From the sequence record OR427838.1: 64,000 bases of DNA. One strand, 5' to 3'. The stretch is from Escherichia phage fDHCT2. The notes under the pieces are model-generated. The model did not search any database. It was not told the DNA's origin and saw only the letters and a program-made list of their open reading frames with translations. Shown one piece after another: positions 50,301-59,821 of this stretch (its first letter is position 1; every line of letters begins with the position of its first letter). Made by a program: the position numbers and the translations under genes.

Positions 50301-50614
50301 CTCTTAGATTTAATTTTATCCAGTTCTTCTTGTATTTGCATTGTAACACATTTTTCTACATGAAGCGCTAGCTCTTCTTTTCGGTCTTCGGAAGGTGTTC
50401 CGAAATCAACCGACACTTTTCCATCTTTCTCAATAACAATATTCATCACATAAACGATGTGAGCAGTGCCATCGGGTAAAGTAAGCATAATTTCCTGCTT
50501 AACCGAACCCATTGACTTACGGATTATATCTAATGATTTCTCATAATAACGAGGGTCACTAGGACCCTCTTCGGTATCTTTAACAAAATTATCTAAATCA
50601 GATAAATCAGTCAT
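50285..50614 (-). CDS. 40: Hypothetical protein at gene 40 position (head vertex assembly chaperone in T4)
   Basis: 109 aa between 41 and uvsX. Confidence 0.5.
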   Translation of the reverse strand: MTDLSDLDNFVKDTEEGPSDPRYYEKSLDIIRKSMGSVKQEIMLTLPDGTAHIVYVMNIVIEKDGKVSVDFGTPSEDRKEELALHVEKCVTMQIQEELDKIKSKRWWKW

Positions 50615-51788
50615 GATCGCTCACAAAATTCATATTTTCTAAATCGTTTTCTATATCAGCGGCGCTTTGGGTATTTCCACCTAATTTAACAGCAACGTTC
50701 TTAGAGACACGAGAGTTAATAAGGTCGTTCACCGCATCGTCAACTTCTTTAATAGAATTAATTGCACCGAGCTTATACTTATTCTCGATTGCTTCACGGA
50801 ACGGAGCATGTTTAAACAGCGGTCCCCAGAACTCGACACAATCGGTAGCTTTAGCACGCCATGATTTTTCTTCTTGAACCATTTCACCTGTGGTTTCGTC
50901 AAGGAATGCACGATTATACCAACCAGCTTTAGGTTTCACAACAAAGCCAATATCAGTAGCCATTTCAAGCAATCCACTGAATGGGTCGATACCACCTTCA
51001 AAGTTCACAGTAATTGGGAACGTTGATTTCTCTTTAACAGTACGAGATTTTTCGGCCTTCAGGGTGAAGTCATAACCAGTGAGCTCGGTGCCATCTTTAA
51101 CCTGACGTTTAGAGATAAAGAATACGGTAGAAGCAGAGTACAGAATACCGGTACCGCCACCCATAATCTCTTTAGGATACATTCCACCAATTTCCATAGC
51201 CGTATGGTTAATTGCTACACAAGGGATATCCTTGATGGTCAGATAAGGTGTTACGATACGGAACAGAGATTTCAGTGACTTAGCACGGGTCATATCACCT
51301 ACAACTTTCTCGTTCAAAGCATCTTCGGTTTCTTTCTTAGAAGCGGTGTTACCGATGGAGTCGATAAAGATAATAACCTTTTCACCACGAGTAATTTCTT
51401 CTAATTGGTTGGTCATGTCAACCTTCAGTTGTTCAACTGACTGGATTGGCGTATGAACCACACGTTCCAGGTCAACACCCATTGAACGGAAATAAGATTC
51501 TGAAGCACCGAACTCAGAGTCATAGAACAAGCAAATTGCGTCTGGATATTTCTTCATATATGCTGCAACCATGGTAAGTCCAAACAATGTTTTAAAGTGT
51601 TTAGATGGAGCAGCAAAGATTGTCAAACCTGATTGTAAGCCTGCATTCAACGCACCACCCAATGCAATATTCAGCATAGGGATACGAGTAGGAACTTCGT
51701 CACGACCATTAAACAATTTGGATTTGGTCAGGTCGGCAGTCATTTTAGAAGTAGAAGCTTTAATCAAACGGGATTTTAAATCAGACAT
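50607..51788 (-). CDS. uvsX: UvsX recombinase (RecA-like)
   Basis: 393 aa (T4 UvsX 391); RecA-fold blocks. Confidence 0.92.
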   Translation of the reverse strand: MSDLKSRLIKASTSKMTADLTKSKLFNGRDEVPTRIPMLNIALGGALNAGLQSGLTIFAAPSKHFKTLFGLTMVAAYMKKYPDAICLFYDSEFGASESYFRSMGVDLERVVHTPIQSVEQLKVDMTNQLEEITRGEKVIIFIDSIGNTASKKETEDALNEKVVGDMTRAKSLKSLFRIVTPYLTIKDIPCVAINHTAMEIGGMYPKEIMGGGTGILYSASTVFFISKRQVKDGTELTGYDFTLKAEKSRTVKEKSTFPITVNFEGGIDPFSGLLEMATDIGFVVKPKAGWYNRAFLDETTGEMVQEEKSWRAKATDCVEFWGPLFKHAPFREAIENKYKLGAINSIKEVDDAVNDLINSRVSKNVAVKLGGNTQSAADIENDLENMNFVSDHD

Positions 51789-51840: not shown

Positions 51841-51869
51841 ATTATATCACTTCACATTTACAGCGTTAA
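51841..51869 (-). promoter_or_regulatory. Candidate promoter for uvsX (extended -10 TGATATAAT)
   Basis: TTAACG-N17-TATAAT; downstream box resembles the early-element box (TTACCCTATC). Confidence 0.35.
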
Positions 51870-52759
51870 AGGACCACGTCCTCATAACTTGGCATTTCGT
51901 GCTCAGAATGGATATGGGCGCCGAAATAAATGAATTCAGCTAGACCAGGATGGAATACTAAACCTGGGTTCTCATGATAAATGATATGAGGTCTTGATTT
52001 CAGAATCTGATAATATTCAACCTTACTTGGTTTGAATTTAATAATCTCTACATCAGGACGATAGTCTTCACGCTTAAATGAATCATTCGGGTCGGTGATA
52101 TAAAGACGAGCACCTTCAGCCGCAGCTTGGTCTACAACTCTTTCGAATTGATAACACTTATCCGAAATACGGAATGGGTGGAAAATACCATCAATTTTAA
52201 TAGGCGCTAGACCTTCAGAGTAACGCTCAATTACTGCCGGATTAATTACCTTTTGGTCTACAAAAATCTTATCAGAGGACGCACCTCGTGACACCAGGAC
52301 GTCTTTCTGACATTGGTTCAAGACTGTAGTATAAATCGAACGTTCAACTGAAGACACGTCGGTATCAATAAACTCATCGATGTAATAACGAGGAACTTCA
52401 GGGTCCATTGTAATGTTAAAGTTGAATTGTACAGTCTGAGCACCATCATAACCAGTGATATCGGTTACTAATCCCGAGCAGTCATAGTATTCGATTAACG
52501 AATCAACGACAAACTCATTTTCGGACCAAAAATGTTTACGGGTCTCATAAGCATTTTCTTTATACCAAAGCGGCACGAAATTCAGTTCAGGAAATAATTC
52601 AATACATTCTTTGATATCGCTCGAATTTCTAGGATAAGCCAGATAATCACCTGGGCAAGCACGGTTTAAATGGAGTTGGAAATTACCGTCCTTAAGGACG
52701 GCATATTCACCTGTTTCGTAACTACGCATACTGAAAATAGGAACGATAAACAAACTCAT
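51866..52759 (-). CDS. Uncharacterised protein at the locus where T4 encodes beta-glucosyltransferase
   Basis: 297 aa; no motif I can assign; ATGA overlap with gene 42 homolog. Confidence 0.5.
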   Translation of the reverse strand: MSLFIVPIFSMRSYETGEYAVLKDGNFQLHLNRACPGDYLAYPRNSSDIKECIELFPELNFVPLWYKENAYETRKHFWSENEFVVDSLIEYYDCSGLVTDITGYDGAQTVQFNFNITMDPEVPRYYIDEFIDTDVSSVERSIYTTVLNQCQKDVLVSRGASSDKIFVDQKVINPAVIERYSEGLAPIKIDGIFHPFRISDKCYQFERVVDQAAAEGARLYITDPNDSFKREDYRPDVEIIKFKPSKVEYYQILKSRPHIIYHENPGLVFHPGLAEFIYFGAHIHSEHEMPSYEDVVL

Positions 52760-53454
52760 TTCAGGAATCCTCGAACGTAGTCAAAATCACGTTCAAATAC
52801 GTGTGCACTAACCATAGTATGGGAATACGTACCCAGACCAACACCACACTGTTCAGCAATAAAGGCCATCAGTTTACCCTGCAGATAGAAATCCAGCTGC
52901 ATAACGATAGCACAGTTCTGTGAACGCATATGAGTATGTGCATACAGACGTCCATCACGAATATAATATGTTACCGAATCGGTACATGGATATTCTAGGG
53001 ATTCGTCAGAATCAAGGAGGGCTTGGTCTTGTTCTTGGAGAATTTGGAACACAACTCGTCTCGAGTTAGGCTTTTCTTTAAGCTCTTTAAGTAGGGCTGG
53101 GAGTTGGGCCACAATTCGAGGTCCATAGAAAGTGTTGAAGTTTGCAGGCAATACGTCACTTTTCGGCTTATCAATGAACTTAGCAACATTAGGGTATTCC
53201 TTAAATGCTTCGGCAGCGTCAGTACCACCAGAAATCATAAATTTCCAAAAGGATTCGGCATATTCATAACTGATACGATTGATACGTGGGTCGGTGAATT
53301 TATAGGTGCTGGCATCCAGTACTTCTATAGAAGCAGAACCAATTTCATAACAACGTCCGATACGAGAATCAACTGCAAACTGTGGAGCTTCCAGGATTTC
53401 TTCGTTCATTTGTTTAAATGCATTTTCAAAACTAACAGCGGTAATGTGTTTCAT
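52756..53454 (-). CDS. 42: Thymidylate-synthase-fold pyrimidine hydroxymethylase/methylase, divergent gene 42 homolog
   Basis: 232 aa; blocks align to T4 dCMP hydroxymethylase: PNSRR, PCTDSVTYYIRDGRLY...MRSQN (catalytic Cys), SAHVFERDF. Confidence 0.7.
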   Translation of the reverse strand: MKHITAVSFENAFKQMNEEILEAPQFAVDSRIGRCYEIGSASIEVLDASTYKFTDPRINRISYEYAESFWKFMISGGTDAAEAFKEYPNVAKFIDKPKSDVLPANFNTFYGPRIVAQLPALLKELKEKPNSRRVVFQILQEQDQALLDSDESLEYPCTDSVTYYIRDGRLYAHTHMRSQNCAIVMQLDFYLQGKLMAFIAEQCGVGLGTYSHTMVSAHVFERDFDYVRGFLK

Positions 53455-53987
53455 TTATTCACCTTATTTTCAATATATTCGTTCAGACGTTTTAATTCTA
53501 CCATATCAACATTAAGCAAATTATTATGGCCGTCATGATTTAAGATTTTAAACACGTTTTCAAAACATGTTTCGTATTGCTGGATAGTTAGGTTGAACTC
53601 ATCTTTGGTTAATTTAATAAGGTCATCTTCGAAGTCTTCATCTAATGGATTACGGGTTAAAATAACCTCGATAACGTTAAATTCGGATTTAAACCCTTTC
53701 CAATCTTCCAGTTCTACATAAGGGTCCATTTCACCACGAAGGAATCCTGAGTAAACAATATTACTTGGATAACCACGGTCAAGGATGTAAACGAAATTAG
53801 GGTCTAAAAACTTATACAACGTCTCGACTAAAGCCTTATCATTATCAGTTCCTAATGAAATACACTTGCCATTAATCTTTTTAGGAAAATCAATAAGGCG
53901 GTATTTCTTATTGGATAACAGATTTTTAATTAAAGTGGACTTCCCGGAATTATCTGGGCCGTCTATAACAATGATTTTTGGATTCAT
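53451..53987 (-). CDS. P-loop nucleotide/nucleoside kinase (thymidylate-kinase-like)
   Basis: 178 aa; N-terminal IVIDGPDNSGKSTL Walker A. Confidence 0.55.
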   Translation of the reverse strand: MNPKIIVIDGPDNSGKSTLIKNLLSNKKYRLIDFPKKINGKCISLGTDNDKALVETLYKFLDPNFVYILDRGYPSNIVYSGFLRGEMDPYVELEDWKGFKSEFNVIEVILTRNPLDEDFEDDLIKLTKDEFNLTIQQYETCFENVFKILNHDGHNNLLNVDMVELKRLNEYIENKVNK

Positions 53988-54367
53988 GGATGATAGGCCT
54001 TATAACTATCAAGAGTTCCTTCACGAACCAATTCTTTAAAGTGGTCTGGACGGATTGCTCGGTCATCGATGATAAAAGTATAACTCGGCTTGTGTGTAAG
54101 CAAATTGTGATATTTCAATCCAATTTTTTCAAGGTTCTTAACCAATGCAGGAACTACTTCAACCAAGATTCGACCTGGGCCACATGAAGTCATGCCACGG
54201 GCAGTGAATAATGTAATCTCGTACCCTTCATCATAAAGCTTATTAATCATGGACACCATTTCGGTGTCCGGTTTAAAGTTCTCATAATCACGGTCATGGT
54301 TCCAAATCGTGATTGTGTTATCGATATCAAAACATAAATGTGGTTTATTTTCTACTCGATGCGACAT
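53984..54367 (-). CDS. HAD-superfamily phosphatase
   Basis: HAD motif I FDIDNT near N-terminus; start refined to ATG 54367 (TAATG overlap); alternative start 54382. Confidence 0.55.
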   Translation of the reverse strand: MSHRVENKPHLCFDIDNTITIWNHDRDYENFKPDTEMVSMINKLYDEGYEITLFTARGMTSCGPGRILVEVVPALVKNLEKIGLKYHNLLTHKPSYTFIIDDRAIRPDHFKELVREGTLDSYKAYHP

Positions 54368-56040
54368 TAAATTTTCTTCCATTGTTTGTGGAGTTCAGTA
54401 GAACCTGTAGGTTTATATTTTACACCAGTTTCCTGGTCAAGCAAAACCCACTTATCAGGACAACGAGTAATAATTTGAGCCGTGATAGGGTCACGAACTT
54501 CATCGACAAATTCACCAGTAATAAGCTTACGCTTACGAGGATGCCGCTTCAGCAGCACACTCAGTTGGTACAAACCGTTATAATAAGCACCCAGAGCTTT
54601 CAGAGGGTTATTCTTAAAGTAACCTGCCAGCGCCATCCAAATAACAGCAATCCAGAGCTTGTGCTTAAATGTGCACATAGGAATATCGTCTAAAGGCATA
54701 ACCTTTTCAATATCAACGAATACACGAGTTCCATTACGAGTTAATCCACCCCATAGAGGGTCTGAGTTAAATTTGTCATAGCCATCGATAGAATAAAGCA
54801 CCTTAGCTTCATCATAAATCGCAGGGCCTTTAGAACTATTACCGAAATAACCACGTGGGTCGATGATTTTAATATCACCTTCGTCCGACAGCATAATATT
54901 ACTGTAGTGCGGGTCACCATGAATAAGTTGGTACGGTTCTTTATGTTCAGACAGAATTTCTAATGCATGGCGGAGAAGTTTTTCAGGGTCGCCTACTTTG
55001 AAATCGTTGACATGGGTAATGCCCTGTGGAGCAAAGCCTTCAATCAATCCGGCAATAGAAGCATTACGAATAAGGACCTTGTCCAATACTTCTTTCTTAA
55101 CATCGGAATACCATTGTTCATCGGACGGATTATCAATAGTTCCACCAAATGAACGTAATGCACTAATGACCTTATAAACCATGAGGACTTTAGTTTCTTT
55201 GGACATAAACCGGTAGGCATCTGCCATGGTCCGACCAAAGATACGTTCCATTTTAATGAATTCGCCTGGAGAAAAGTCTACAATGCTAGGAACGAATTCA
55301 GAATCAATAGAATTATACCAATTGATTTCTTTAGATTGAATTTCTTTACCTAAATCGTTAGTTGGTACTTTAATAGCCAGATTCTCAGTGAACTCTAATT
55401 TATTAAATTCACGGTTAATTTCAGAATCTTCATGGGCCTTAGCCAGTTTCAATTTGTCACCGACATCAACCACAAAGTCCAGCTTACGTTCAGTCAAATG
55501 GACCATCGAATCCAGGTTGTCTGCAAGGTCTTCGCCATAATTAGAACGGTCGAAACCTGTCCAATTAGCCACCTGATACAAACCAACCACACCACCGCCA
55601 GTACCAATTTCACGCAAGTACGGTTCTTCAAATGTAAAACGACAGTCGGTCCCATAGGTATAACAGTAGTCGTTATCCCACTCAACTTTATGACCTTCAG
55701 GAATAATATCACACCAGTTAAACAAGACATTATGCCCAATGATATCTTCAGCAATGCAATCGATAGCATGAGCTGAACCATTAGCAACATCAACGTTACG
55801 AATAGTGAATTTAGGCTTATCACCAGTAATCATGTTAATGGATTTGATATAGCCTTTAACGAGGTCGTTAAATTTGCTGTGAATAACCAGAATAATTTCA
55901 TCTGATTGGTTACTATACAAATCATACAAATGCTTTAATACCGTATGTTGTTTGTAGTTAACCAATACCTTCGGGATTTCGTTAGTAATTGGATACAACC
56001 GTGAGCCAAGACCCGCGCCTAAAATAACAACCTTTTTCAT
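54367..56040 (-). CDS. Bifunctional sugar-1-phosphate nucleotidyltransferase (N-terminal) / sugar kinase (C-terminal)
   Basis: Start refined to ATG 56040 (GAGGAA SD); N-terminus ILGAGLGSRLYPITNEIPKVLV; C-terminal HGDPHYSNIML...IKIIDPRG Brenner-type kinase motif. Confidence 0.6.
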   Translation of the reverse strand: MKKVVILGAGLGSRLYPITNEIPKVLVNYKQHTVLKHLYDLYSNQSDEIILVIHSKFNDLVKGYIKSINMITGDKPKFTIRNVDVANGSAHAIDCIAEDIIGHNVLFNWCDIIPEGHKVEWDNDYCYTYGTDCRFTFEEPYLREIGTGGGVVGLYQVANWTGFDRSNYGEDLADNLDSMVHLTERKLDFVVDVGDKLKLAKAHEDSEINREFNKLEFTENLAIKVPTNDLGKEIQSKEINWYNSIDSEFVPSIVDFSPGEFIKMERIFGRTMADAYRFMSKETKVLMVYKVISALRSFGGTIDNPSDEQWYSDVKKEVLDKVLIRNASIAGLIEGFAPQGITHVNDFKVGDPEKLLRHALEILSEHKEPYQLIHGDPHYSNIMLSDEGDIKIIDPRGYFGNSSKGPAIYDEAKVLYSIDGYDKFNSDPLWGGLTRNGTRVFVDIEKVMPLDDIPMCTFKHKLWIAVIWMALAGYFKNNPLKALGAYYNGLYQLSVLLKRHPRKRKLITGEFVDEVRDPITAQIITRCPDKWVLLDQETGVKYKPTGSTELHKQWKKI

Positions 56041-56068
56041 TATCTGTTCCTCAAGTGAATGTAGGTAC

Positions 56069-56100
56069 ATTATACACTATTTTTAATAAATTGGTATTGC
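56069..56100 (-). promoter_or_regulatory. Candidate extended -10 promoter upstream of nucleotidyltransferase-kinase gene
   Basis: TGTATAAT on minus strand; weak -35. Confidence 0.3.
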
Positions 56101-56601
56101 TTAAATCTTATCTTTACCGATTTCAATACACTGTTCTATTGCCGCCGGTACTTTGGTCTTGAGCTTATCGATTTGTTTCTTATAATCACGAGCTTTACCG
56201 AAGCTCTCGGTTTCGAGCATTTCGTAATAACGAGCCTCGTGGATGGAAATCTGTAGATTGATATGGTTTACGCACATCGCATACAGTTTCTGCTTTTTGT
56301 ACAAATCATCTTGACGCTTCATTTCTGCCTGGTGTTTGGCTAGTACCGCTTCACGCTTAGACTCTTGTTCACGTTGGAATTCGATTTCCCTTTGAGCATA
56401 TTTTGCACAGTTATTACCGCATTGATTATTAGCTCGGGTATACACAAGTCCGGAACCAGCACGGAATTTCATTTCGCCATCGAATTGTTTCTGTTCAGCT
56501 GCGATACGAGCTTTACCAACTTCATCAGCCGAAACTGCATCGCCATATTGGACCGCGCAACCTGATAGGAGCATACTCATTGCGATAATTAACTTTTTCA
56601 T
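56101..56601 (-). CDS. Putative lipoprotein
   Basis: 166 aa; signal peptide with lipobox LLSGC; GAGGA SD. Confidence 0.55.
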   Translation of the reverse strand: MKKLIIAMSMLLSGCAVQYGDAVSADEVGKARIAAEQKQFDGEMKFRAGSGLVYTRANNQCGNNCAKYAQREIEFQREQESKREAVLAKHQAEMKRQDDLYKKQKLYAMCVNHINLQISIHEARYYEMLETESFGKARDYKKQIDKLKTKVPAAIEQCIEIGKDKI

Positions 56602-56608
56602 AATATCC

Positions 56609-56746
56609 TCAATTAAAACAGTTATACTTAATTTGTGCTATAAGAATAATCCATCCAATGATGAGTGTCGGAATCATTGGTGGAATTGCCACTGCCCAAT
56701 AAACGGTAAAGGCAGCCATTATAAGAAATAAAATAATTATCTTCAT
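56609..56746 (-). CDS. Putative 45-aa membrane peptide (not in ORF track)
   Basis: ATGA overlap with imm-like gene stop; two hydrophobic segments. Confidence 0.3.
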   Translation of the reverse strand: MKIIILFLIMAAFTVYWAVAIPPMIPTLIIGWIILIAQIKYNCFN

Positions 56747-56979
56747 TGTTTAACGATAATGATTTGTGCGTTTGATTTACGTTCAGCGACGATAGCCCAG
56801 ATTAAAGCCACTACCCAACCAATCATCGTCCACCCTAACAGGAGATTAAGGAAGAAAATTCCTACATTACTACGAGTGCCTCGCAGAAGGGCTAAAATCC
56901 ATGGTAAAAAGTAACCGATGAACATAATAACCAGAGAACCAAATCCTAAAACACCAGCACTAACGATTAAAGCTTCCAT
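56743..56979 (-). CDS. imm: Superinfection immunity protein, Imm-like
   Basis: 78 aa, two TM; LRGTRSN...LLGWTMIGWVVALIWA; T4 imm position upstream of 43. Confidence 0.55.
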   Translation of the reverse strand: MEALIVSAGVLGFGSLVIMFIGYFLPWILALLRGTRSNVGIFFLNLLLGWTMIGWVVALIWAIVAERKSNAQIIIVKQ

Positions 56980-56995
56980 TGTAATTTCCTCATGT

Positions 56996-57039
56996 AGTTG
57001 ATAGGAAGGATACTACCACGTTCCTTGTGGTATGTAAAC
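56996..57039 (-). promoter_or_regulatory. Early-type promoter element upstream of imm-like gene
   Basis: GTTTAC-N18-TAGTAT-CCTTCCTATCAACTACATGAGGAA. Confidence 0.5.
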
Positions 57040-57041
57040 AC

Positions 57042-59753
57042 TTAAAAGTCGAACATATCAAATAATGTTGCTTTTTTCTCGTAGTCGATTTTAGCAGACT
57101 CAGTAAAACCAGTCAGAGGCTTGATAAAGGTCTTTTGGAACAGTACGTTGTAGTCCATCCAACGGAGGACTTGGTCACGAATCTGAATCGGAAGTTCAAT
57201 ACCTGACGGCCACGCCATACAAGCTTCACCAAAAGGGTTGCCTTCTTTAAGCGGCAGCACATATACCTTTTCACCATCAACGATACGAGGCATGGTCAAA
57301 TCACCTGCAGAAGCACGCATGTAAGCTAAGCAACCTTTGATGTGATACGGACATTTAGAACCAGGGAAACCGCCTTCATTATATTTCTCGATGTTGTTAG
57401 CACTGGATACTGCAGCAATGCTTACATAGTTTAGTTCGTTAAATTCCTTATTAAACTGTTTGAAATACTCTTGCAAAGAGGCCTCGCCTTCTTGAAGCAT
57501 ACGACGGATACATTCTTTCAGTGCTTTCTGAACTGCTTTAGGTGTACTTGATTTCTGGGTTTCGAGGCCCATGATTTTCAAGTGTGGTTCGGCATAACGA
57601 GTACCTTCCATGTCCCAAACGTTCAGTGCATAACGTTTCTTGCCTGTCCAGAATCCACCAAGACCTTTAGAACCAAGTGGAGGACCAGCGATAGCTTCTC
57701 GGTCCATGAACATCAAGTGCTGTTTATTGTTCATGTATTCGCACATCTCACGGAAGCCTGCATCAATAGCCGGTTCCATACGTTCACGTGCAAATTTATC
57801 TAAGAAATCAACCCAGTGGTTAGTATCACGGAATTTATCTTCGCCTACTTTATTGATGATTGCGTCAGCCTTAACATAAATGGAGTCAGTATCACCATAG
57901 AGCACGAACTTCTGGTTTTCAGTCTTGCACACACCATTCAGATATTCGTTAACCTTACGTTCAATCCATTGGAGGGCCATTTGACCAAACAATGTGATTG
58001 CAGTCGCGTTCCTGAGGTCATAGTAACGGAACCATACGTTACCAAGTGCACCATAAAGGGAGTTGATAAGCAACTTACGGTTAATCTGAGCAGTCATACC
58101 TGCGACTTCAGTACGTTCGGCTTTGAACAACATTTCTTTTAAAGAAGATGCTGACAATTTTTTAATCTGAGCTTTGATTTCGTCAGAGAAGTCGAAACGA
58201 TAATCGATATCCAGTGGGCTATCAACAGACGGATTAGGATTTTCTAATGCTTCCTTAATTAACTCACCATTACGTTGAGCTGCAAGCATATAACCTTTAT
58301 GTTCTTTACGCTGTAAGAACACCTTCGTGATTTCTGTAGGAATCACGCCATCACGGTCTTTATAGTACATCATGCCGTTAGGAGAGCAACTGTAGGTGTC
58401 GCTAGGACGCGGAGCAGTTCCGGCAATATATTCATGTATCGGTGCGTTAGCGAATGTCCCTGCGATGGTCTCTGGGCTTATATTCACTTGTCGAATGATA
58501 CTCGGGTACAGAGATGTAAGGTCGAAACTCATTACATATTTGTACGCGTTAGGAATAGGTTCCTTAACGAAAGCACCTGGATAAGGTTGAACCGCATGCG
58601 ATTTGGCCTGAGGAATAACTTTACCCTGTTCTTTAAGGCTATTAAAGATAATAGCGTCCCAAGTCTTAATTGGACTGAACACCGACTGAATCTGCATCTT
58701 GGCATAGTAACCCATGTCCAGACTAAGAAGAATGAACTGGCGTTTCATATCAATCTGCACAACACGATATACGTCGATAATGTTATAGGAAATATATCGT
58801 TGGTGGTTCGTCTCACGTAACTTGGAGATAGGACCATCATATTTCAACTTACCTACTTTCAATTCATATTCAGAAACATAATCCAGAGAATAAGAAGGCT
58901 GGTTGGTAAAGCTGAATTTTTTATAAAGGTCGATATAATCCAGAACAGAGATACCGAACAGTGTAATAATTTCACGAACACCGTACATATTCTCGATAAC
59001 TTTAACACGAGTCTTACGATGCGGGCTTAATCGCTTAGCAGTGTTCTCACCAAACAGATTTTTCAGACGGTTATAAACGTATGGCACGTCAAATGATTCA
59101 ACGTTCCATCCAGTCAAAATCACAGGAGTTTTCTGTTGCCAGAAATTCAGATACTCAAGCATCATTTCTTCTTCAGAATTAAACGGAAGATAAACGATTT
59201 TGTCAATGATTTCTTGTGGAACTTCGTCACCACCTTCGTCTTGGAGTTTCTCAGCGATTTTAATCGACCACTCTTCGACCGTACCATAAGGTGAAACTAA
59301 AAGGTCAAATACATAGAATTTATCATCAATCGAGTCGTAGTGAGTAATGGCATCGATAGGATGTTTAGCCTGAGCAGGTTCAGGGAATCCATCAGGGGAT
59401 GTTACCTCGATGTCGAAGTTAGCAATACGAATCTTGGAAGAATCATACTTGATTTCTTTACGATAGGTATCAGACAAATAGGCTAATTTATAGTCGTCCA
59501 TACCAAGGGCTTCGAGACCCATATCGTCCATGCGCTTCATCCACTGAGAAGCATCGCGCATTGAATTGAATTCTTTCTTAACACAGCCCTTACCGTAGAT
59601 GTCAATATATTTTACGGCTTGCTCTGGGTTAGCATGCATAAACATTGTAGGCTTGTATGGAACTTCACGACTACGTTCGTTACCATTTTTATCGATGTAA
59701 CGTTCGAGAATATTATCACCGATTTGTTCGACTGTCAAATAGAATTCTTGCAT
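57042..59753 (-). CDS. 43: DNA polymerase gp43 (family B)
   Basis: Start refined to ATG 59753 (MQEFYLTVEQIG); 903 aa; exo motifs FDIEV, polymerase motif YGDTDS; very similar to remembered RB69 gp43. Confidence 0.95.
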   Translation of the reverse strand: MQEFYLTVEQIGDNILERYIDKNGNERSREVPYKPTMFMHANPEQAVKYIDIYGKGCVKKEFNSMRDASQWMKRMDDMGLEALGMDDYKLAYLSDTYRKEIKYDSSKIRIANFDIEVTSPDGFPEPAQAKHPIDAITHYDSIDDKFYVFDLLVSPYGTVEEWSIKIAEKLQDEGGDEVPQEIIDKIVYLPFNSEEEMMLEYLNFWQQKTPVILTGWNVESFDVPYVYNRLKNLFGENTAKRLSPHRKTRVKVIENMYGVREIITLFGISVLDYIDLYKKFSFTNQPSYSLDYVSEYELKVGKLKYDGPISKLRETNHQRYISYNIIDVYRVVQIDMKRQFILLSLDMGYYAKMQIQSVFSPIKTWDAIIFNSLKEQGKVIPQAKSHAVQPYPGAFVKEPIPNAYKYVMSFDLTSLYPSIIRQVNISPETIAGTFANAPIHEYIAGTAPRPSDTYSCSPNGMMYYKDRDGVIPTEITKVFLQRKEHKGYMLAAQRNGELIKEALENPNPSVDSPLDIDYRFDFSDEIKAQIKKLSASSLKEMLFKAERTEVAGMTAQINRKLLINSLYGALGNVWFRYYDLRNATAITLFGQMALQWIERKVNEYLNGVCKTENQKFVLYGDTDSIYVKADAIINKVGEDKFRDTNHWVDFLDKFARERMEPAIDAGFREMCEYMNNKQHLMFMDREAIAGPPLGSKGLGGFWTGKKRYALNVWDMEGTRYAEPHLKIMGLETQKSSTPKAVQKALKECIRRMLQEGEASLQEYFKQFNKEFNELNYVSIAAVSSANNIEKYNEGGFPGSKCPYHIKGCLAYMRASAGDLTMPRIVDGEKVYVLPLKEGNPFGEACMAWPSGIELPIQIRDQVLRWMDYNVLFQKTFIKPLTGFTESAKIDYEKKATLFDMFDF

Positions 59754-59821
59754 TTCATTTCCTTTATAGACGAGTGATTGTCTTTTGTTTGTTGATGAAT
59801 CATTATACTCCAAAAAGGGAC

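What the first reader, a model, noticed from the sequence alone, without database searches (positions are those of the whole stretch)
54367..56040. Nucleotidyltransferase-kinase fusion protein
The N-terminus (ILGAGLGSRLYPITNEIPKVLV) matches the G-x-G-x-R-L signature of sugar-1-phosphate nucleotidyltransferases. The C-terminus carries HGDPHYSNIM...IKIIDPRG, the catalytic loop and DFG-like motif of APH/choline-kinase-fold small-molecule kinases. Such fusions are typical of salvage-type NDP-sugar (or CDP-alcohol) synthesis and are not part of the T4 core gene set.
Basis: partly seen in the sequence, partly recalled or inferred. Interest (0 to 1): 0.75.

Follow-up and report, generated by a model that had tools for sequence, protein, structure and literature searches.

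The report
Phage UDP-arabinose synthase (AfhE-type) gene
This gene encodes a two-domain enzyme (sugar kinase plus nucleotidyltransferase) that T4-like phages use to make the activated arabinose with which they coat their DNA cytosines against host nucleases; the family was described and biochemically characterised in 2018-2026, so the finding is real but not new.

Summary
Window 54367-56040 (minus strand) is a 557-aa ORF. Its N-terminal domain is a sugar-1-phosphate nucleotidyltransferase and its C-terminal domain is an APH/choline-kinase-fold kinase. All catalytic motifs are invariant across 54 homologues.

The window is a Dhakavirus (JS98-like, about 96% DNA identity). The protein is 99% identical to JS98 gp042 and collinear over its full length with RB69 gp52:53 (43% identity, E 3e-141). 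That Mosigvirus protein is the type published as AfhE of phage HY126: a D-arabinose-5-phosphate 1-kinase plus UDP-D-arabinofuranose pyrophosphorylase.

The gene heads a translationally coupled operon:
- AfhF-like HAD phosphatase
- Tmk-like kinase
- 5-hydroxy-dCMP synthase
- one DNA arabinosyltransferase

The best explanation is that it supplies UDP-Araf for arabinosyl-5-hydroxycytosine DNA.

It missed the DNA-modification role, and the characterised homologue does not salvage a free sugar.

One local twist: this phage clade has no arabinose-5-phosphate isomerase, no RB69 gp50 or gp49, and no second glycosyltransferase. It presumably draws on host Ara5P and adds a single arabinose. The sugar on Dhakavirus DNA has not been measured.

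Verdict: already known, low interest.

The parts
54367..56040 (-). AfhE-type bifunctional enzyme, 557 aa (Dhakavirus orthologue of RB69 gp52:53 and JS98 gp042)
   Evidence: ORF. It is 99% identical to JS98 and KIT01 proteins. It is 43% identical over its full length to the Mosigvirus cluster that contains RB69ORF053c, E 3e-141.
55426..56040 (-). N-terminal sugar-1-phosphate nucleotidyltransferase domain (aa 1 to about 205); inferred UTP:D-Araf-1-P uridylyltransferase
55996..56019 (-). GAGLGSRL (aa 8-15), the G-x-G-x-R-L NTP-binding loop; the signature lysine K24 lies at 55969-55971
   Evidence: Read directly from the sequence. G10, R14, L15 and K24 are invariant.
54541..55425 (-). APH/choline-kinase-fold kinase domain (aa about 206-500); inferred D-arabinose-5-phosphate 1-kinase
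54898..54921 (-). HGDPHYSN (aa 374-381), the catalytic loop (Brenner motif H-G-D-x-x-x-x-N)
   Evidence: H374, G375, D376 and N381 are invariant in 54 homologues. Positions 378-379 are H-Y in this clade against N-F in the other T4-like homologues.
54850..54861 (-). DPRG (aa 394-397), the Mg2+-binding Asp equivalent to DFG
   Evidence: D394, P395, R396 and G397 are invariant.
54367..54540 (-). C-terminal tail of about 57 aa (small beta-rich extension) plus the stop codon; function unknown
   Evidence: The model shows short strands with pLDDT 83-92. The tail is present in all homologues of 39% identity or more and in some of the 33-36% homologues, and absent from most of the more distant ones.
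53984..54382 (-). AfhF-type HAD phosphatase (inferred Ara-1,5-bisphosphate 5-phosphatase). The true start is probably ATG at 54367, overlapping the AfhE stop as TAATG.
   Evidence: 62% identical to RB69 gp51. E 2.8e-54 to PDB 9iqw, whose sequence is 99.2% identical to RB69 gp51. NCBIfam TIGR01689 capsule biosynthesis phosphatase, E 6e-15. Junction sequence read.
53451..53987 (-). P-loop Tmk/Cmk-like nucleotide kinase (RB69 gp45-like); its role in the pathway is unresolved
   Evidence: 38% identical to RB69 gp45. Only weak P-loop kinase matches.
52756..53454 (-). Thymidylate-synthase homologue, 5-hydroxy-dCMP synthase
   Evidence: 79% identical to RB69 gp48, which was shown experimentally to make 5hodCMP (PMC13326640). 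E 3e-126 to PDB 9iqu. The sequence RSQN...QLD places Asn at the E. coli ThyA D169 position, the diagnostic residue named in PMC13326640. This was read by ungapped register; BLAST's gapped alignment differs.
51866..52759 (-). The phage's only DNA arabinosyltransferase candidate (RB69 gp46:47-like)
   Evidence: 64-70% identical to RB69 gp46 and gp47. No RB69 gp3 homologue exists in the window or in JS98.

Best explanation
The gene encodes the Dhakavirus orthologue of AfhE, the enzyme that makes the sugar donor for phage DNA arabinosylation.

Proposed mechanism:
1. The C-terminal APH-fold kinase uses ATP to phosphorylate D-arabinose 5-phosphate at the anomeric carbon, giving arabinofuranose 1,5-bisphosphate.
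2. The product of the next gene, an AfhF-type HAD phosphatase, removes the 5-phosphate.
3. The N-terminal nucleotidyltransferase domain condenses Araf-1-phosphate with UTP to give UDP-D-arabinofuranose.
4. The single glycosyltransferase of the operon transfers the sugar onto 5-hydroxycytosine in replicated DNA. That base is supplied as 5-hydroxy-dCMP by the operon's thymidylate-synthase homologue.
5. The resulting arabinosyl-5-hydroxycytosine DNA resists restriction and CRISPR nucleases.

This phage has no arabinose-5-phosphate isomerase, so Ara5P must come from the host enzymes KdsD and GutQ.

Shown here: the two folds, the invariant catalytic residues, orthology to the Mosigvirus enzyme, the operon context, and the absence of a phage isomerase. 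Taken from the literature on homologues: substrates, order of steps, UDP as carrier, and the DNA product. Inferred: that the 43%-identical Dhakavirus enzyme keeps the same substrates, and that Ara5P is host-derived.
For: Domains and fold. Sixty columns are invariant across 54 homologues spanning 30-81% identity to the query. They include every canonical catalytic residue of both domains.

Orthology: 43% identity, collinear over the full length, E 3e-141 to the cluster holding RB69ORF053c. Of 127 columns that are at least 95% conserved in 24 other T4-like homologues, 115 are unchanged in the Dhakavirus, Marfavirus and Proteus-phage clade.

Context: five genes with overlapping stop and start codons lie between uvsX and gene 43. 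They are homologous to RB69 gp51, gp45, gp48 and gp46:47. The neighbours match PDB 9iqw and 9iqu, whose sequences are 99% identical to RB69 gp51 and gp48.

Literature:
- PMC13326640 section 27 reports that HY126 AfhE is a D-arabinose-5-phosphate kinase plus UDP-D-arabinose pyrophosphorylase, that AfhF is the Mg-dependent phosphatase, and that RB69 gp52:53 is the analogue.
- The same paper lists Dhakaviruses among clusters with conserved synteny and shows glycosyltransferases using UDP-Araf on DNA.
- The Thanatos homologue TH1_060 (43% identical, P0015) is essential for phage propagation (PMC12838424).

Independent fusion evidence: metagenomic proteins of 924-946 aa combine HAD, SIS isomerase, nucleotidyltransferase and this kinase in one chain.
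Against: No enzyme assay or DNA chemistry exists for any Dhakavirus that I could find. Identity to the characterised type is only 43%.

The clade lacks the phage isomerase, gp50, gp49 and the second transferase that accompany the enzyme in RB69. Two residues inside the kinase catalytic loop differ from the other T4-like homologues (N378H, F379Y).

The primary paper on AfhE (He et al., Nat Chem Biol 2026) is not held in the library, so I rely on a secondary account. The link between PDB 9iqu/9iqw and phage HY126 is inferred; the tool gives no organism.
Confidence: 0.85

Rival explanations
1. Same enzyme family and same product, but by a free-sugar salvage order. The HAD phosphatase first makes free arabinose from Ara5P. 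The kinase then phosphorylates free arabinose at C1. This is the first reader's 'salvage-type' reading and the function column of Table 1 in PMC13326640.
For: Table 1 of PMC13326640 labels the kinase domain 'Phosphorylates Ara to Araf1p' and the HAD protein 'dephosphorylates Araf5p to Ara'. The closest structural relatives of the kinase (choline kinase LicA, APH enzymes, maltokinase, glucosamine kinase) act on unphosphorylated substrates.
Against: The text of the same paper reports the biochemical result of He et al.: AfhE phosphorylates Araf5P to Araf1,5P and AfhF then dephosphorylates it. The HAD neighbour's best family matches are phosphatases of capsule and heptose-bisphosphate type. Invariant basic residues in the kinase domain (K321, R325, R396, K413, K481) would suit a phosphorylated substrate, but I could not test this geometrically.
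Confidence: 0.07
2. The Dhakavirus, Marfavirus and Proteus-phage clade has diverged in substrate. Lacking a phage arabinose-5-phosphate isomerase, it activates a different host pentose phosphate (for example ribose 5-phosphate) or uses a different nucleotide. The DNA would then carry a sugar other than arabinose.
For: No isomerase, gp50, gp49 or gp3 homologue is found in the window plus JS98. The pattern holds across the clade: 25 Klebsiella-phage records have the enzyme, and at most 3 have the isomerase. Identity to the arabinose-type enzyme is 42-43%. The kinase catalytic loop carries N378H and F379Y. There is no published DNA chemistry for this clade.
Against: 115 of 127 highly conserved columns are unchanged, and most of the 12 changes are conservative. 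All 60 family-wide invariant residues are kept. E. coli, Klebsiella and Proteus all make Ara5P for Kdo synthesis (established knowledge), so a phage isomerase is dispensable. The glycosyltransferase and the 5hodCMP synthase are 64-79% identical to the RB69 arabinosylation enzymes.
Confidence: 0.07
3. A LicA/LicC-like or AmgK/MurU-like pair fused into one chain. It would activate a non-DNA-related small molecule (phosphocholine, an amino sugar, a CDP-alcohol) for modifying the host envelope or the virion.
Against: The gene is translationally coupled to a 5hodCMP synthase and a DNA glycosyltransferase. Orthologues sit in phages with chemically proven arabinosyl-5hoC DNA: RB69, DLP3, 92A1 and Bas46/47. 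No curated equivalog family reaches its cut-off.
Confidence: 0.01

Closest known systems
AfhE of Escherichia phage HY126, equivalent to RB69 gp52:53 and Acinetobacter phage DLP3 gp82 (He et al. Nat Chem Biol 2026; Lee et al. NAR 2026, PMC13326640; predicted by Thomas et al. 2018, PMC6024577)
   Same: Same length, same domain order (nucleotidyltransferase then APH-fold kinase) and same C-terminal tail. Collinear at 43% identity. The same neighbours are present (AfhF phosphatase, 5hodCMP synthase, ara-GT), at the same genome position between uvsX and the DNA polymerase gene.
   Different: It belongs to a separate clade (Dhakavirus 99%, Marfavirus 80%, Proteus and Providencia phages 71%). That clade has no phage arabinose-5-phosphate isomerase, no gp50 or gp49 and only one glycosyltransferase. 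The catalytic loop reads HGDPHYSN rather than HGDPNFSN. The orthologue itself has not been characterised.
ADP-/GDP-heptose pathway: GmhA (SIS isomerase), HldE or HddA kinase, GmhB (HAD phosphatase), HldE or HddC nucleotidyltransferase
   Different: The kinase fold differs: HldE has a ribokinase-type kinase and HddA a GHMP-type kinase (established knowledge), whereas this one has the APH fold. The sugar is a pentose, not a heptose. The product decorates DNA, not LPS.
LicA/LicC (choline kinase plus CTP:phosphocholine cytidylyltransferase) and AmgK/MurU (MurNAc anomeric kinase plus uridylyltransferase)
   Different: They are separate proteins that act on free, unphosphorylated substrates in true salvage, with no intervening phosphatase. 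Sequence similarity is marginal (E about 1e-3 for a single sequence).
T4 glucosyl-hmC system (gp42 dCMP hydroxymethylase plus alpha- and beta-glucosyltransferases)
   Same: The same strategy and the same genome neighbourhood: a thymidylate-synthase homologue makes a modified dCMP, and the DNA is glycosylated after replication.
   Different: T4 uses host UDP-glucose and needs no sugar-activating enzyme. Here the phage must make its own donor, which is why this gene exists. The base is 5-hydroxy-C rather than 5-hydroxymethyl-C (PMC13326640).

Membership tests
AfhE-type bifunctional Ara5P kinase / UDP-Araf pyrophosphorylase | A single chain of about 550-565 aa with an N-terminal NTP_transferase domain and a C-terminal APH-fold kinase domain | tested here: met
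AfhE-type bifunctional Ara5P kinase / UDP-Araf pyrophosphorylase | Full-length sequence homology to the Mosigvirus enzyme (RB69 gp52:53, HY126 AfhE type) | tested here: met
   43% identity, 557 of 561 aa aligned, E 3e-141 to P0051. The P0051 cluster contains RB69ORF053c. The HY126 sequence itself was not available; its equivalence to RB69 is inferred from the 99% identity of PDB 9iqu and 9iqw to RB69 gp48 and gp51.
AfhE-type bifunctional Ara5P kinase / UDP-Araf pyrophosphorylase | Intact catalytic residues in both domains | tested here: met
   G10, R14, K24, D111, D192, D195, K224, E238, H374-G-D376, N381 and D394-P-R-G397 are invariant in 54 homologues.
AfhE-type bifunctional Ara5P kinase / UDP-Araf pyrophosphorylase | An adjacent AfhF-type HAD phosphatase within a 5hodCMP-synthase and glycosyltransferase cluster | tested here: met
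AfhE-type bifunctional Ara5P kinase / UDP-Araf pyrophosphorylase | Enzymatic activities: Ara5P plus ATP gives Ara-1,5-P2; Araf-1-P plus UTP gives UDP-Araf | not testable with these tools
   Known only for the HY126 enzyme, through the account in PMC13326640.
RB69/DLP3-type complete arabinosylation cluster | A phage-encoded arabinose-5-phosphate isomerase (RB69 gp55) | tested here: not met
   tblastn finds no hit at E<=1 in the window plus JS98 1-150,000, which together cover a whole Dhakavirus genome. The organism counts show the same for the whole clade.
RB69/DLP3-type complete arabinosylation cluster | A second or third arabinosyltransferase giving di- or tri-arabinosyl chains (RB69 gp3) | tested here: not met
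   No gp3 homologue: the best tblastn hit has E 1.6 over 41 aa. The rIIA.1-gene 39 interval is empty in JS98.
RB69/DLP3-type complete arabinosylation cluster | Arabinosyl-5-hydroxycytosine in virion DNA | not testable with these tools
   No chemical data for Dhakavirus were found in the literature searches.
Sugar-1-phosphate nucleotidyltransferases (Pfam PF00483) | The G-x-G-x-R-L...K signature, a score above the curated cut-off, and the Rossmann-like fold | tested here: met
APH/choline-kinase phosphotransferases (Pfam PF01636) | The Brenner motif H-x-D-x-x-x-x-N, the Mg-binding D-x-G, the beta3 Lys and alphaC Glu, and the bilobal kinase fold | tested here: met
HldE (bifunctional heptose kinase/adenylyltransferase) | A ribokinase-fold kinase domain and a cytidylyltransferase-like adenylyltransferase domain | tested here: not met
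   No PfkB or CTP_transf_like match. The kinase has the APH fold. HldE is an analogue in pathway logic only.

The most novel reading that the evidence does not exclude
The isomerase-less Dhakavirus, Marfavirus and Proteus-phage clade may not make arabinose at all. Its diverged enzyme (43% identity, altered kinase catalytic loop) could activate another host pentose 5-phosphate such as ribose 5-phosphate. That would give a DNA glycan not yet described, for example ribofuranosyl-5-hydroxycytosine. Failing that, this clade would be the first shown to depend on the host's Kdo-pathway isomerases KdsD and GutQ for its DNA modification.
Probability: 0.1. Interest if true: 0.5.

Novelty: already known. 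Interest (0 to 1): 0.2.

Why it matters
The enzyme explains how a phage can decorate its DNA with a sugar whose activated form the host does not supply. It builds the donor, UDP-arabinofuranose, from a host intermediate. The resulting arabinosyl-5-hydroxycytosine shields the genome from restriction enzymes and CRISPR nucleases, and it determines sensitivity to type IV and glycosylase defences. This is relevant to choosing and engineering therapeutic coliphages, and Dhakaviruses are used as such.

All of this is already published for the Mosigvirus and Acinetobacter enzymes. What the window adds is a minimal five-gene version of the pathway, with no isomerase and a single transferase. It is a convenient natural test of which parts are essential, and its DNA chemistry is still unmeasured.

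Tried and rejected
- **Primary papers.** I looked for the AfhE paper (He et al.) and for Mahler et al. 2025 by DOI and PMID. Neither is held, so the biochemistry is cited second-hand from PMC13326640.
- **AfhE structure.** I searched the PDB for one and found none. Only nucleotidyltransferases appear, at E>=1e-3 with the single sequence. With the family profile the kinase half gives only weak RIO2 hits.
- **HY126 taxonomy.** NCBI lists it as unclassified. I instead inferred that it is a Mosigvirus from the PDB sequences.
- **Promoter and terminator scan of the operon.** The number of sites is no higher than in shuffled sequence, so no transcription-unit claim is made.
- **Curated NCBIfam equivalogs.** None reaches its cut-off, so names seen in GenBank records such as GlmU, RmlA, MurU, 'UDP-glucose dehydrogenase' and 'phosphoheptose isomerase' are rejected as misannotations.
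- **ThyA alignment.** I rely instead on the 79% identity to the experimentally verified RB69 gp48.
- **Substrate-pocket geometry.** I could not examine it because the model's coordinates are not exposed.

Full report

**Where the window comes from.** The 5.3 kb around the gene is 95-96% identical to Dhakavirus genomes such as JS98, JS10, EcWhh-1 and KIT01. Window position 1 corresponds to JS98 position of about 140,212. The protein is 99.5% identical to a KIT01 'hypothetical protein'. It is 80% identical to Klebsiella Marfavirus proteins, 71% to Providencia and Proteus phage proteins, and 48% to Serratia phage 92A1. It is 42-46% identical to Mosigvirus (RB69), Acinetobacter, Shewanella, Enterobacter and Yersinia T4-like phages. 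It is about 28% identical to proteins of some jumbo phages.

**Anatomy of the locus.** Five genes lie head to tail on the minus strand between uvsX (50607-51788) and the imm and DNA polymerase genes (56743-59813), with overlapping stop and start codons:
- the target gene (54367-56040);
- a HAD phosphatase (53984-54382, with its start probably at 54367, giving a TAATG overlap as in RB69);
- a Tmk-like P-loop kinase (53451-53987);
- a thymidylate-synthase homologue (52756-53454);
- a glycosyltransferase (51866-52759).

tblastn with the RB69 cluster gives gp53 44%, gp52 41%, gp51 62%, gp48 79%, gp47 70%, gp46 64% and gp45 38%. The ThyA homologue matches PDB 9iqu at E 3e-126. The HAD protein matches PDB 9iqw at E 2.8e-54. 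Those two PDB sequences are 98.7% and 99.2% identical to RB69 gp48 and gp51.

**What is known.** Thomas et al. 2018 found arabinose on RB69 DNA and proposed ORF53_52 and ORF055c as UDP-arabinose synthesis genes (PMC6024577). Lee et al. 2026 (PMC13326640) made three relevant points:
- The base is arabinosylated 5-hydroxycytosine, and gp48 is a 5-hydroxy-dCMP synthase.
- DNA glycosyltransferases use UDP-Araf.
- RB69 gp52:53 is one protein split by a sequencing error, with a nucleotidyltransferase N-domain and a kinase C-domain.

They equate gp52:53 with AfhE of phage HY126, which He et al. (Nat Chem Biol 2026) showed to be a D-arabinose-5-phosphate kinase plus UDP-D-arabinose pyrophosphorylase. 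AfhF is the Mg-dependent phosphatase acting between the two steps. They list Dhakaviruses among the genera with syntenic clusters. The Shewanella phage Thanatos homologue (P0015, 43% identical to the window protein) is essential for propagation (PMC12838424). The He et al. paper is not in the library, so the substrate assignments are second-hand.

**Mechanism proposed for this gene.**
1. Kinase domain: ATP plus D-Ara5P gives Araf-1,5-bisphosphate. The residues are K224, E238, H374-G-D376, N381 and D394, all invariant.
2. AfhF-like phosphatase: the bisphosphate gives Araf-1-P.
3. N-domain: Araf-1-P plus UTP gives UDP-Araf. The residues are G10, R14, K24, D111, D192 and D195, all invariant.
4. 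The single glycosyltransferase transfers the sugar to 5-hydroxycytosine in DNA.

The folds, catalytic residues, orthology and context are shown here. The substrates and the order of steps come from the literature on a 43%-identical homologue. Transfer of that function to this clade is inference. It is supported by the finding that 115 of 127 columns conserved at 95% or more in 24 other T4-like homologues are unchanged in the Dhakavirus, Marfavirus and Proteus-phage clade. Independent support for the four-activity pathway comes from metagenomic fusion proteins of 924-946 aa carrying HAD, SIS isomerase, nucleotidyltransferase and this kinase in one chain. The adjacency of a SIS isomerase and a homologue in Sphingomonas phage PAU points the same way.

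**What is different here.** The window plus JS98 1-150,000 cover a whole Dhakavirus genome. They contain no homologue of RB69 gp55 (arabinose-5-phosphate isomerase), gp50 or gp49, and none of gp3, the second arabinosyltransferase. The place of the isomerase is taken by a 166-aa lipoprotein-like ORF with no family match. Organism counts show the same for the whole clade. The enzyme occurs in 367 phage records and the isomerase in 276. Klebsiella phages score 25 against at most 3, and Proteus phages 7 against at most 3. The simplest reading is that these phages take Ara5P from the host Kdo pathway (KdsD and GutQ; established knowledge) and attach a single arabinose. Thanatos, which also has a single ara-GT, is mono-arabinosylated. 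A change of sugar cannot be excluded. Two residues in the kinase catalytic loop differ (N378H, F379Y), and no chemistry is published for this clade. I give that about 7-10%.

**Comparison with known systems.** The protein is a member of the AfhE family: architecture, homology, catalytic residues and context are all met, and activity is not testable here. It is not a member of the 'complete' RB69-type cluster, because the isomerase and the second transferase were tested and not found. In pathway logic it works like the heptose pathway GmhA, HldE and GmhB, including the fused kinase and transferase, but with an unrelated kinase fold. The characterised homologue, however, acts on a phosphosugar with an intervening phosphatase, so 'salvage' is not the right label.

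**Verdict.** This is a real gene and its domains were correctly read. Its function is already explained in the literature, and the protein itself sits in GenBank at 99% identity as a 'hypothetical protein'. Novelty: already known. Interest is low, at 0.2. The residual interest lies in the isomerase-less minimal cluster.

Noticed in passing
window 56101-56601 (-): A 166-aa ORF with a lipoprotein-type signal peptide (MKKLIIAMSMLLSGC...) and a charged helical remainder. It occupies the position where RB69 has its arabinose-5-phosphate isomerase. It has no Pfam or NCBIfam match and is annotated orf43 in JS98.
   Followed up: partly
whole window, plus JS98 loci L003-L005: Dhakavirus lacks homologues of RB69 gp55 (isomerase), gp50 (U32-peptidase-like), gp49 and gp3 (second arabinosyltransferase). 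The modification cluster is a minimal five-gene version. Organism counts suggest the same for Klebsiella Marfavirus and Proteus phages.
   Followed up: yes
window 54365-54382 (-): The start of the HAD phosphatase gene is ambiguous. The annotated ATG at 54382 gives a 16-nt overlap with the upstream gene. The second ATG at 54367 gives a TAATG stop-start overlap and matches the N-terminus of RB69 gp51 and PDB 9iqw.
   Followed up: partly
window 56065-56075 (-): The longer ORF's ATG at 56070 lies inside a perfect TATAAT hexamer. This suggests a promoter -10 element just upstream of the real start at 56040. No -35 or MotA box was recognised, and the consensus scan did not call it.
   Followed up: partly
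window 54370-54540 (-), aa 501-557: A C-terminal tail of about 57 aa (consensus T..P.KW.L.D.ET...Y.........W). It is present in all homologues of 39% identity or more and in some of the 33-36% homologues, but absent from most of the more distant ones. Its function is unknown, and it is confidently modelled as short beta strands.
   Followed up: partly
proteins P0068, P0074, P0092; locus L006 14-2854: Metagenomic fusion proteins of 922-946 aa combine HAD phosphatase, SIS isomerase, nucleotidyltransferase and the AfhE-type kinase in one chain. In L006 the gene is followed by a sulfotransferase gene. The organism and the acceptor are unknown.
   Followed up: partly
L008 (Sphingomonas phage PAU) 4559-7731: A jumbo phage unrelated to T4 has a SIS isomerase (gp212) two genes upstream of an AfhE-like protein (gp215, 28% identical). 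No ThyA homologue is annotated within 6 kb. The same sugar-activation module may serve another acceptor there.
   Followed up: partly
window 53451-53987 (-): The Tmk-like kinase is only 38% identical to RB69 gp45. It sits between the phosphatase and the 5hodCMP synthase, whereas in RB69 it lies next to uvsX. Its substrate is unknown; in RB69 the gp1-type dNMP kinase already phosphorylates 5hodCMP.
   Followed up: no
GenBank records listed: Annotations of this cluster are inconsistent and often wrong. The HAD phosphatase is called 'phosphoheptose isomerase'. The target is called GlmU, 'UDP-glucose dehydrogenase', 'capsid and scaffold protein' or 'capsule biosynthesis protein'.
   Followed up: no
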